Positions 5,981 to 15,156 of a stretch of 43,757 nucleotides of DNA are shown here, piece by piece. The notes beneath the pieces are model-generated. The model did not search any database, was not told the origin of the DNA, and saw only the letters and a program-made list of their open reading frames with translations. The stretch comes from Reclinomonas americana ATCC 50394 (Eukaryota): positions 48,961-92,717 of the forward strand of contig PS015207.1 in the NCBI GenBank assembly GCA_048213135.1, read 5' to 3'. The position numbers were made by a program, and so were the translations under genes. Numbering within the stretch: position 1 is the stretch's first letter; each line of letters opens with the position of its first letter.

Positions 5981-7671
5981 ATGCACACCAAACTCCCGCG
6001 CGTCGCCGCCATTGTGGCGCTGGTACTCGTTGCATGCGCATTCTCTGCGCCCGCTGCGAGGGCCCTCTTGCACGATACAGTCTCCGTGTCGGTGCGTTGC
6101 TGTTTTTGGCACCCACACGCGACTTATCATGTCTCACTGGGAGTGTGCATGCGCAGTCACAGTTACAGTGGAACCGCGCAGCTTCTCCGCGCATTCGACT
6201 CTCGTTTCACGCCGCTCCCGCTTCTCGTTCTTCGTCGACGTACCGCGACGTGCTGCCCGCTGATGTGCGCACTGTCGAGGATGCCGCGCTGTTTCACGTG
6301 CGTCGCCTTGTGAGTGCGCATGCGGAAATGTCCGCGTCCGCCTCTCGCCACGGCCAACAGCATCGAGTCGGCGTGCAAGCGACACCTGCAGGTGCGTGAT
6401 GTGTGGAATGAGAGCGGGGTGGAGAGAAGAGAACCGCCTGCATTATTATGTCTGTCTGCGCATGAACATGCGTCCGCTTTTCGCTTTCACGAATCTGGCA
6501 TGTCAAATGCACACCTCTGTCTGTGTGCTCTGCTCTCTCTCTCTCTCTCTCTCNNNNNNNNNNNNNNNNNNNNNNNNNNNNNNNNNNNNNNNNNNNNNNN
6601 NNNNNNNNNNNNNNNNNNNNNNNNNNNNNNNNNNNNNNNNNNNNNNNNNNNNNNNNNNNNNNNNNNNNNNNNNNNNNNNNNNNNNNNNNNNNNNNNNNNN
6701 NNNNNNNNNNNNNNNNNNNNNNNNNNNNNNNNNNNNNNNNNNNNNNNNNNNNNNNNNNNNNNNNNNNNNNNNNNNNNNNNNNNNNNNNNNNNNNNNNNNN
6801 NNNNNNNNNNNNNNNNNNNNNNNNNNNNNNNNNNNNNNNNNNNNNNNNNNNNNNNNNNNNNNNNNNNNNNNNNNNNNNNNNNNNNNNNNNNNNNNNNNNN
6901 NNNNNNNNNNNNNNNNNNNNNNNNNNNNNNNNNNNNNNNNNNNNNNNNNNNNNNNNNNNNNNNNNNNNNNNNNNNNTCCTCCTCCTCCTCCTCCTTCTTG
7001 TCTTTCTTCTCCTCACGCGCAAACGCCCTTATATTTGTCAGCGACTCGTGTACGGATTCTTTCACACATTTTTCCCGAGCTGTTACAAACAGCAGCAGCA
7101 GCAGCTCCTCAATCAATGATAGATTTGCTCACTCGTTCCTTGCCGCCTCGCGCACAGCCGAATCAGCCTCCGTCTCTCTACATGTGGCGCGCCTTGTCAC
7201 GTCGCTGCACGGTGGTCGCGTCACGGCCGCACACGTACGCCAGTCGGTTCACGGCGTGGAGGTTTTGAACAGCGAAGTTCGCATGCTCCTGCATCCGACC
7301 TCGTTCCAGTTGTTGTCTGCCACTGGTTCGCTGGTCGACGTCGCCTCCTTCACCTTCGCCTCCGAGTTCCACGCCGCCGCCTCGTCCGTCGATGGTGGTG
7401 CCTTTGCGGTGCCCGCCGACGTTGAACAGTACAAACAGGCCCTGGTGACGGCGCTGAACGAACATTTCGGCGCCAACAATGCCATCAGCGTGGACAACGT
7501 ACGCTTTGAGGAGTTCACGCGCCATGGCCTCCACAGCGATGTGTGGCTGTATACGAGTGAGGGAGCTCCGGTGACTGTGCGCAGCCCGCATGGCAGCCGA
7601 GTGAGAAAGGTGTGGATCGGGCAAGTGATGGAACACACGCACTTTCTTGCCCTTCGGGTCACCAGCTCACT

Positions 7672-7726
<55 letters not shown>

Positions 7727-14000: not shown

Positions 14001-15156
14001 CAGTATACCACCAATTCCGTAAGTTTCATCGCCAGGTCCCTAAACTCGACGACCGGGGGTGCGTTGGTGCACGATGGCGACACCTTTGACGTGTTTGTTA
14101 TTCCACTCGGCGTCAACATAACGGACTACTCGCTGTATTCGTCATCGTCTTTTCACTTTGGTGCGGTGCTCTCTCGCGCAGTGCAAACATAAGAAGCCTG
14201 TTTGCTAACTTGCTCTTCTTCATGCAGTGTCGCCGGTGGTGACATCGACATCGTCTGGAGGTGTGTCGGCGGCAATTGTTGCTTTGCTGGTATTGGGATC
14301 ACTGCTAGTGGCTGCTTTGCTGGTGCTCGGTTGCTGCTGCTGTCTCCTGTGCGCTGCTCGCCGACGGTGGCATCATCGATGCAAAGACGAGCAGCTGCAG
14401 TCTGTTGCAGTAGTCAGTTTCTGGCAGTTCGTCGTGTCTCCCAAGTTGTGGTGGTCCTCGACTCCGCCAACTGTCGATGAGAAAGGAGTGGAGTCGAAGC
14501 GTCTCACGACATTGACGATGCCCGATGCAGACGCAGCTGTGGAGTCGTTAGATGGTTCGACAGTGTGCTGCACTTTGATTAGTCTTCTGTCACGCTTAGA
14601 CTTCTCGCTCGTTTTTTTCTTCCCAGTGCGCAACGGGACGGCAGTGCCCAATCTCTTGCTGTCCGACACTCTCGCTGGTCTACCTGTTGTTCCTCTGCCG
14701 CTGACCGTTCGTCTTTCCACTGCTGTCAACGACGATGGCGTCGAACCAGACAGCGGCGGTCGAGGAGTATTATCTCCTTCCGTCTTGATGCTCCCAAGCA
14801 CACTCTCCTTGCCGCCATTGCCTCCGCTTCCACGTCGAAACTTGGCCAGAGCTTCTTCTGCGATGGAAGAAAGTTCTTCCTCGCTGCGCCTGGTGCCCGT
14901 GCCACTCGCAATCCCATCGCTGCGACACGTCAACCTTCCGCGTGGCCCACTGGCAGCGGCTGCGCGTCCCTCGCCAGCGAGTGGCGTTCACGAGTATGCA
15001 CCTGGCCCGTTGCTTACTGCCACCGCGACTGAGTTGTTTGCTGCGCGGTTGTCTGCACCACAGGGGCTCCCTCCGCTGCCTCCGCCTCCCACGCGAGTTG
15101 CGCATCCGCTGCGTCCCTCTGCCTCCACCCTCACTCCCCCTTCATCGATGCCTTGA
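5981..15156 (+). CDS. Type I membrane M36 (fungalysin-family) zinc metalloprotease: signal peptide, FTP/PepSY-like propeptide, M36 with PA insertion, InhA/MAM-like beta domain, EGF repeats, cadherin-like domains, TM helix, Pro-rich tail
   Basis: Signal peptide MHTKLPRVAAIVALVLVACAFSA. Frame-consistent exons 5981-6091, ~6163-6391, 7158-7609, 8474-9295, 9369-10067, 10417-~10624 and further exons. Motifs: GNNVDAYAD, LFYVTNYLHD, GFDESAGNAQ, NNANMSTPSDG, PA motif IALIRRGACSF, HEWGH at 9717-9731, EGIADF, EVHNAGEVWA, YDGGVVEI. EGF repeats (CLHGTC.., CLNGGTC..). TM VSAAIVALLVLGSLLVAALLVLGCCCC..RRR at ~14257-14370. N-gaps could hide exons. Confidence 0.88.
7670..8062. repeat. (CT)n and (TACG)n/(CGGTA)n low-complexity flanks of an N-gap, inside an M36 intron
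   Basis: Direct. The TACG runs decay out of (CT)n toward the gap and are probably sequencing noise. Confidence 0.8.

What the first reader, a model, noticed from the sequence alone, without database searches (positions are those of the whole stretch)
5981..15156. Myxobacterial-looking M36 protease rebuilt as a eukaryotic receptor-like surface protein
Seen: an intron-containing gene with an intact HEWGH..E zinc site, an internal PA domain and a YSFE..YDGGVVEI domain, followed by EGF repeats, cadherin-like repeats, a TM helix, a Cys cluster and a long Pro-rich cytosolic tail. From recall, the block FNYRVWA..PADSP..PHPTG.PDG..P.F..PSLV..DPWLPAGATET.GNNVDAYADL.GPDGFS.GD.RA resembles bacterial (myxosortase-dependent) M36 enzymes rather than fungal fungalysins, which typically lack the PA insert. 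Inference: horizontal transfer from predatory bacteria, then intron gain and replacement of the bacterial sorting tail by EGF-cadherin-TM-signalling modules. It could be a surface protease for prey digestion or sensing.
Basis: partly seen in the sequence, partly recalled or inferred. Interest (0 to 1): 0.72.

Follow-up and report, generated by a model that had tools for sequence, protein, structure and literature searches.

The report
Membrane-anchored myxobacterial protease in a eukaryote
A microbial eukaryote carries a family of zinc-protease genes most closely related to surface proteases of myxobacteria, and this one copy, unlike its secreted sister copies, appears to have been joined to the host's own cadherin-shaped stalk and membrane anchor; RNA evidence for the joined gene is still missing.

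Summary
Confirmed. 5981-15156 gives one 19-exon, stop-free, 1,980-residue gene: signal peptide, M36 protease with PA insert and intact zinc site, three EGF repeats, two cadherin-fold repeats, membrane helix, Cys cluster, Pro-rich tail. Residues 47-1173 are collinear with myxobacterial M36 enzymes at about 40%. Three trees nest it within Myxococcota, but AU tests did not reject a position outside them (p 0.066, 0.138); no fungal sequence was in the trees. The scan found this transfer before on other DNA of this genome. New here: the genome has 12 such loci; 9 of the other 11 end in a secreted Cys-rich tail, and only this one is seen with a membrane anchor. The switch maps inside exon 11 at 12240. 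The stalk repeats come from a large host family, and the tail is under purifying selection (dN/dS 0.17 against two other contigs). Two Logan fragments group with the eukaryotic copies and stop at the same intron position, hinting at an older transfer. Best reading: a cell-surface digestive protease, re-anchored after transfer. Signalling is unsupported. No RNA run was listed.

The parts
5981..6091 (+). Exon 1: start codon and signal peptide (hydrophobic residues 3-30)
   Evidence: hydropathy; paralogue C58 has a similar leader
6157..7609 (+). Exons 2-4 (6157-6309, 6361-6391, 7158-7609): propeptide region, collinear with the bacterial FTP-type prodomain; N gap 6554-6976 lies in intron 3
   Evidence: exon 4 matches NF038111 weakly; Pfam FTP is seen in the bacterial relatives only
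8474..9295 (+). Exon 5: end of the prodomain and first half of the M36 catalytic domain, with the myxobacterial-type block
   Evidence: PF02128 E 3.4e-37; NF038112 E 4e-99; 51-58% to named Myxococcota proteins
9372..9629 (+). [quoted passage not shown]
   Evidence: PF02225 E 2.6e-13; fungal PDB chains align only from residue 104 of this exon on
9717..9791 (+). Zinc site: HEWGH (640-644) and E664
   Evidence: HExxH and SEG.xD kept in 12 of 12 loci
10417..10878 (+). Exons 7-8: end of the catalytic domain and linker
   Evidence: PF02128 on exon 7; collinear with P0041
10948..12156 (+). Exons 9, 10 and start of 11: Ig-like beta-sandwich and the YSFE..YDGGVVEI domain, both inherited from the bacterial enzyme
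   Evidence: NF038112 E 2.9e-21 and 8.6e-10; model residues 1-103 of exon 9 match generic Ig-like folds, Z up to 8.4
12157..12240 (+). EGF repeat 1, shared with the secreted paralogues; nucleotide homology to them ends at 12239-12240 (fusion point)
   Evidence: 6 of 6 secreted loci tested
12265..12444 (+). EGF repeats 2 and 3, found only here at this similarity
   Evidence: PF23301 above cut-off; only self matches in the genome
12445..13162 (+). Two cadherin-fold repeats (end of exon 11; exons 12-13), members of a large host repeat family
   Evidence: 151 matches in the genome, 150 of 1,586 candidates scored; 41-48% to host repeats; fold
13235..14160 (+). Exons 14-17: about 240 extracellular residues, probably two beta-rich domains (inferred from sequence), no family
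   Evidence: dN/dS 0.11-0.12 against C5416 and C4729; no family hit
14263..14352 (+). Transmembrane helix and Cys cluster (candidate palmitoylation site, inferred)
   Evidence: 81-82% identical exon in C5416 and C4729
14353..15156 (+). Cytosolic tail with intron 18 (14555-14626), Pro-rich motifs including two PxxPxR, and the stop codon
   Evidence: dN/dS 0.29-0.30; a splice donor present in the sister tails is absent here, so one Pro repeat instead of several

Best explanation
A single nuclear gene for a type I membrane zinc protease, built in steps. (1) A myxobacterial M36-PA protease gene entered an ancestor of this eukaryote (inferred from similarity and trees). (2) It gained introns, lost the PKD and MYXO-CTERM end, and took a Cys-rich EGF-type tail, giving a secreted enzyme that was then duplicated (shown as gene structure). 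(3) One copy recombined inside exon 11, right after EGF 1, with a host gene for an EGF/cadherin-fold stalk, membrane helix and Pro-rich tail (junction shown; mechanism inferred). The protein would pass through the secretory pathway, lose its propeptide, and cut protein at the cell surface or in the forming food vacuole, held off the membrane by a short stalk. The Cys cluster and Pro-rich motifs would control where it sits (inferred). It works like a tethered digestive ecto-protease, the role the sorting tail gave its bacterial relatives.
For: Open 19-exon frame with splice sites kept in paralogues. Eukaryotic neighbours on the same contig: Ras-family, COG7 and MCM genes. 39.7% identity over 1,183 columns to a Myxococcaceae protein, ending at residue 1173 where PKD and MYXO-CTERM start in the bacteria. 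NF038112 is the best NCBIfam model on 4 of the 6 head exons scanned. Careful tree: 6 eukaryotic copies 100/95, inside a clade with 8 Myxococcota rows 99/96 and one with 17 such rows 100/100. The window copy lies among secreted copies. Zinc ligands kept in 12 of 12 loci. dN/dS 0.13-0.30 in the head and 0.11-0.30 in the tail; dS of head to nearest paralogues (0.64-0.78) resembles dS of the tail to its sisters (0.64-0.65), which fits one joining event. The two repeats match host repeats that occur in the same order in giant repeat genes. M. xanthus MepA, an M36 homologue, is enriched in vesicles; its mutant loses extracellular protease activity but lyses prey normally (PMC4158809, passages).
Against: AU tests do not reject the eukaryotic copies branching outside all myxo-type bacterial rows (p 0.066; p 0.138). 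No fungal sequence was in any tree. The fused form is seen once, in a fragmented assembly (16,441 contigs) with signs of local mis-joins (inverted exon at the end of C820; a secreted-type tail behind a WD40 gene on C4941). The sister tails on C4729 and C5416 break inside cadherin repeat 1, so the donor gene's front end is unknown. Activity, location and substrate are untested, and whether MepA is in the same subfamily as the donor was not tested.
Confidence: 0.66

Rival explanations
1. Same gene, but a regulatory surface protease: it sheds or trims the host's own giant cadherin-like or EGF surface proteins, or couples cutting to a signal through its Pro-rich tail, in the manner of ADAM or membrane-type MMP enzymes.
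For: It shares repeats with the host's giant surface rods. The cytosolic tail is under purifying selection and its Pro-rich repeat is multiplied in the sister genes.
Against: No catalytic or known signalling domain in the tail; no PPxY, NPxY or Yxx-hydrophobic motif. The head is little changed from secreted paralogues. The first repeat has lost the acidic motif seen in the host repeats.
Confidence: 0.16
2. Assembly chimera: a secreted-type M36 gene and an unrelated stalk gene were joined by the assembler at similar EGF sequences, so no such protein exists.
For: The join is at an EGF boundary, where a repeat-guided mis-join would also stay in frame. The assembly is fragmented. One secreted tail (C4941) has no head on its contig.
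Against: No N or simple repeat at the join, and the 411 bases across it are unique in the genome search. The C4941 tail is 91-94% identical to the main secreted group, closer than the window head is to that group (81-84%), so it fits the headless-tail locus C9430 better. Head and tail have matching dS to their relatives.
Confidence: 0.1
3. The membrane form is an older subfamily with several members: C4729 and C5416 are further M36-membrane genes whose front halves were not assembled, so the window copy is not the sole product of a fusion.
For: Both contigs break at the same place inside cadherin repeat 1, and their tails have the same 8 introns as the window gene.
Against: Exon 5 and exon 9 searches each give 12 loci, and of the 11 other heads 9 have secreted tails; the last two are 96.6% and 92.7% identical to secreted copies. 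No second copy of EGF 2-3 was found.
Confidence: 0.08

Closest known systems
Myxosortase-dependent M36 metallopeptidases of Myxococcota (NCBIfam NF038112; e.g. P0041 Myxococcaceae, P0001 Polyangiaceae, P0031 Minicystis rosea)
   Same: Signal peptide, prodomain, M36 with PA insert and two C-terminal beta domains, collinear over about 1,100 residues at 39-40%; surface display by a C-terminal anchor.
   Different: 18 spliceosomal introns; no PKD domain or MYXO-CTERM; EGF, cadherin-fold stalk, membrane helix with the Cys cluster after it (before it in MYXO-CTERM; PMC11980579, passages), and a 243-residue cytosolic tail.
Fungal fungalysins (M36; PDB 4k90, 7qfy, 7z6t, 7qp3)
   Same: M36 catalytic motifs.
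   Different: Exon 5 scores 69-77 bits over at most 138 residues against about 320 bits over 274 residues for myxobacterial proteins (different databases); no PA insert aligned; chains of about 390 residues, no anchor.
Myxococcus xanthus MepA (MXAN_3564)
   Same: Myxobacterial extracellular M36 protease; the only functional data found for such an enzyme (PMC4158809, passages).
   Different: Its sequence was not compared here; it is vesicle-borne, not anchored by a eukaryotic membrane helix.
ADAM and membrane-type MMP surface proteases of animals (recalled, not tested)
   Same: Layout only: prodomain, zinc protease, Cys-rich/EGF stalk, membrane helix, Pro-rich tail.
   Different: Different protease family (M36 gluzincin-type site, HExxH plus a distant Glu); no homology implied.
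Secreted M36 paralogues in the same genome (earlier scan findings e1-7451027, e1-7397553)
   Same: Same head, introns and EGF 1.
   Different: They end in further Cys-rich repeats and a 63-residue Cys-rich domain with a stop and no membrane helix.

Membership tests
Peptidase M36 (PF02128) | Profile score above the curated cut-off | tested here: met
   129, 61 and 25 bits on exons 5, 6, 7 against a cut-off of 23.3
Peptidase M36 (PF02128) | HExxH, downstream Glu ligand and the later His aligned with solved fungalysins | tested here: met
   H640-H644, E664, H744 align with 4k90 and 7qfy
Peptidase M36 (PF02128) | Zinc-dependent proteolysis | not testable with these tools
   needs an assay
Myxosortase-dependent M36 (NF038112) | Best-matching subfamily model across the head | tested here: met
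   best on exons 5, 6, 9, 11; level with NF038111 on exon 7 (42.1 vs 42.9 bits); exon 4 matches only NF038111, weakly
Myxosortase-dependent M36 (NF038112) | Whole-protein score of 1,500 bits | tested here: inconclusive
   only single exons were scanned; two genuine myxobacterial relatives also miss it (1,302 and 1,163 bits)
Myxosortase-dependent M36 (NF038112) | C-terminal MYXO-CTERM sorting signal (TIGR03901) | tested here: not met
   no match on the helix exon; matches in P0001 and P0004; the helix is 250 residues from the end
Myxococcota clade of M36-PA enzymes | Nested position in a tree | tested here: inconclusive
   nested with strong support; AU p 0.066 and 0.138
Fungal fungalysin | Compact catalytic chain without PA insert; closest relatives fungal | tested here: not met
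   PA present; no named eukaryotic protein among the 120 listed hits; weak PDB scores
Cadherin domain (PF00028) | Cadherin fold | tested here: met
   repeat 1: Z 10.1, rmsd 2.8 A, 93 aligned to protocadherin-15; ESM Atlas 0.92-0.93 to cadherin clusters
Cadherin domain (PF00028) | Pfam score above cut-off | tested here: not met
   0 hits for repeat 1; 2 of 24 aligned repeats hit at best E 0.056
Cadherin domain (PF00028) | Calcium-dependent adhesion | not testable with these tools
   acidic motif degenerate in repeat 1 by eye; needs an assay

The most novel reading that the evidence does not exclude
A bacterial feeding protease was taken up long ago by a whole group of microbial eukaryotes (the two Logan fragments being other members), and in this lineage one copy regained surface display by fusing to a host cadherin-fold stalk with a palmitoylated, Pro-rich tail. 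That would be an independent origin, from a bacterial M36 enzyme, of an ADAM-like membrane protease tied to the cytoskeleton and used at the site of prey capture or to shed the cell's own giant adhesion rods, and one case of a wider habit in this genome of mounting bacterial enzyme heads on host stalks.
Probability: 0.25. Interest if true: 0.65.

Novelty: new variant of a known kind. Interest (0 to 1): 0.42.

Why it matters
Bacterium-to-protist transfer of secreted hydrolases is common, and the scan had already noted this one. What adds value is that the steps of domestication can be read in one genome: loss of the bacterial anchor at the domain boundary, a secreted family of 12 loci, then re-anchoring of one copy by an in-exon fusion that maps to a few bases. 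It gives a direct comparison of secreted and tethered forms of the same enzyme, and extends M36 proteases to a membrane-bound eukaryotic form. Seven literature searches (listings only) showed no paper on a myxobacterial-type or membrane-anchored M36 in a non-fungal eukaryote; that library lacks most subscription journals.

Tried and rejected
RNA: no RNA run was listed for 8400-15200, so no reads were laid; this says nothing on expression. Contamination: rejected; the gene has conserved introns and eukaryotic neighbours. The three intron-free M36 genes on contigs C1 and C2 are much more distant (44-50% over about 140 residues), lie among bacterial genes and branch apart, so they are not the donor. 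A fungal-type M36 in this genome: the PF02128 search gave 31 matches, all on the 12 loci or C1/C2. Other eukaryotic members: 78 of 78 metagenome loci had no stop within 150 codons after the exon 5 match (80 of 200 confirmed stretches kept), and no full-length eukaryotic protein was named among the 120 listed of 3,482 profile hits. Front end of the sister tails: neighbouring contig numbers, DNA, protein and pattern searches did not find it. Membrane-proximal domains: no Pfam family; ESM Atlas best 0.84 with low recognition, a lead only; no fold was run for them because they span four short exons. The second half of exon 9 was not resolved by the fold search. Look-ups of earlier findings by sequence gave nothing relevant. 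A fungal outgroup could not be obtained as a stored sequence. The host was not placed below 'microbial eukaryote'. Supplements of the papers were not opened.

Full report
Observation. The region 5981-15156 can be spliced at 18 GT..AG introns into one frame of 1,980 residues with no internal stop. It starts with a hydrophobic leader, holds Pfam M36 on exons 5-7 and PA on exon 6, EGF families on exon 11, and one more hydrophobic helix near residue 1720 followed by a Cys cluster and a 243-residue tail. The zinc site is HEWGH 640-644 with E664. The model was built by hand, but paralogues test it: exon ends 4-11 fall on AG or GT at 87 of 90 positions in six paralogues, and all 8 tail introns are GT..AG in two other contigs. 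Exons 1-3 are less certain. No RNA run was listed.

The gene is nuclear. The same window encodes intron-bearing Ras-family, COG7 and MCM proteins. The assembly also holds megabase contigs C1 and C2 with three intron-free M36 genes among bacterial genes, Bacteroidota-like by my reading of their C-termini; they are distant from this gene and served as outgroup.

Origin. Exon 5 finds Myxococcota proteins first: up to 58% identity, and nearly all named hits among the 120 listed of 1,725 are Polyangiaceae, Myxococcaceae or MYXO-CTERM proteins. In GTDB samples, 22 of 121 genomes of the myxobacterial centre's phylum match (best E 1.9e-87) against 11 of 401 of the betaproteobacterial centre's phylum (best E 1.7e-62). 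The spliced protein aligns with a Myxococcaceae protein from residue 47 to 1173 at 39.7%, ending where the bacterial PKD domain and sorting signal begin. Solved fungal M36 enzymes match only short stretches and skip the PA insert. A site-heterogeneous tree of 49 rows and 581 columns puts six eukaryotic copies together (100/95), inside a clade with 8 Myxococcota rows (99/96) and one with 17 (100/100); two other trees agree. Two of the rows labelled Myxococcota were so labelled from a MYXO-CTERM annotation and 15 from the phylum sample. Against this, holding all myxo-type bacterial rows together without the eukaryotes costs only 25-28 log units and is not rejected (p 0.066; p 0.138 with added outgroups). 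So the family is myxobacterial in type beyond reasonable doubt, while the exact nesting, and with it the direction and donor, is likely but not proven. No fungal sequence was in the trees.

The family. The genome holds 12 intron-bearing loci by exon 5 (66-83% identity for the other 11) and 12 by exon 9. Several pairs are 93-97% identical and may be haplotypes, so the true gene number may be about eight. All 12 keep the zinc ligands. Nine of the other 11 continue after EGF 1 into more Cys-rich repeats and a 63-residue Cys-rich end with a stop and no membrane helix: six on one contig, three across consecutively numbered contigs. The remaining two are near-copies of secreted loci. The window copy lies among the secreted ones in the tree, so secretion is the older state and the anchor was gained once.

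The fusion. Nucleotide similarity to six secreted loci ends at 12239-12240, the last Cys of EGF 1, inside exon 11. There is no intron, gap or simple repeat there, so recombination between EGF-coding sequences is the simplest mechanism (inference). Next come two EGF repeats with no close copy in the genome and two repeats of a host family with at least 151 matches, many in tandem arrays. They are 41-48% identical to host repeats that stand in the same order in those arrays. Repeat 1 folds as a cadherin domain but misses the Pfam model. From repeat 1 to the end, the tail has two sisters, C4729 and C5416 (96% identical to each other). Against C5416, dN/dS is 0.12 in the repeats, 0.11 in the next domains, 0.24 around the helix and 0.30 in the Pro-rich tail, so the whole tail is a coding sequence under selection. 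Tail dS (0.64-0.65) is close to head dS against the nearest secreted copies (0.64-0.78). Both sister contigs break inside repeat 1 and their front end was not found, so the donor gene is not identified. The sisters carry several copies of the last Pro-rich unit on extra exons; the window copy lacks that splice donor and stops after one.

Other eukaryotes. Two unnamed Logan fragments, P0121 and P0266 (contigs of 2.5 and 2.1 kb), are the only 2 of 359 other rows to group with the eukaryotic copies in the exon 5 tree (98), and do so at 100/97 in the careful tree. They are 53-54% identical to exon 5, begin near its start, and stop matching at residues 524-526, where intron 5 lies, with a short hydrophobic run to a stop. 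Six of 62 short hits end in 515-530; the other four lack such a run. I read them as exons from other eukaryotes that share the intron, which would make the transfer older than this genome's lineage. Their DNA was not seen, so this is a lead.

How it most likely works. Shown by sequence: leader, prodomain, intact catalytic residues, stalk, one helix, cytosolic tail. From established knowledge of M36 enzymes (recalled): the prodomain is removed and the enzyme acts outside the cytosol. Inferred: it digests protein at the cell surface or in the food vacuole. The one functional study found of a myxobacterial M36, MepA, reports lower extracellular protease activity in the mutant but normal prey lysis (PMC4158809, passages), which favours feeding over killing. 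MYXO-CTERM anchors proteins at the bacterial surface (PMC11980579 and bioRxiv 10.1101/2023.06.07.544157, passages), so the new anchor restores the old location by other means. A shedding or signalling role is possible but has no direct support: the tail has PxxP motifs and nothing else recognisable.

Novelty. The scan had noted the transfer twice on other pieces of this genome and called it fairly ordinary (unchecked notes, though my tests agree on the secreted type). The membrane-anchored architecture did not turn up in the protein searches or in seven paper searches. It is a new variant of a known enzyme family made by ordinary processes, with an unusually readable history. Interest 0.42.

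Noticed in passing
G000 contigs C1 (2.33 Mb) and C2 (2.05 Mb); L023-L025: Gene-dense, intron-free contigs with bacterial genes (ATP synthase alpha, three long M36 proteins): one or more bacterial genomes co-assembled with the eukaryote.
   Followed up: partly
G000 contigs C31, C75, C269, C283, C444, C5194 and others; L042-L052: Giant tandem arrays of cadherin-fold repeats, about one per exon, some in inverted blocks within a contig; at least 151 matches.
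   Followed up: partly
G000:C4729 and C5416 (L047, L048): Membrane-protein tails whose cytosolic Pro-rich unit is repeated on at least three separate exons; front end unassembled.
   Followed up: partly
L070:621-809 (-) and nine other loci: A 63-residue Cys-rich terminal domain of the secreted M36 copies, 87-98% conserved, with no Pfam family; more conserved than the protease itself, so perhaps a binding module.
   Followed up: partly
G000:C4941:1-2700 and C492:16677-16805: The last exons of the secreted tail stand behind WD40-repeat genes, across simple repeats: partial duplicates or assembly joins.
   Followed up: partly
window 645-2225 (+): A 526-codon open frame with BNR/Asp-box repeats after a short Cys-rich part, probably a secreted beta-propeller protein.
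   Followed up: partly
window 20781-21995 (-) and 39629-41422 (-): Two genes with P-loop motifs, one with a coiled coil, one with a weak AAA_22 match; they recall the expanded P-loop effector-like families of protists (recalled, not tested).
   Followed up: no
window 23481-24050 (+), 29550-33110 (+), 36827-39244 (-): Housekeeping genes with introns: a Rab-type GTPase, COG7 and an MCM-family helicase.
   Followed up: partly
window 33424-36378 (-): Long low-complexity, Pro-rich open frames without a Pfam family.
   Followed up: no
P0092, P0094, P0102, P0112, P0126: Some bacterial relatives also carry Cys-rich tails after the same head, so swapping the tail at this point is a habit of the bacterial family too.
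   Followed up: no
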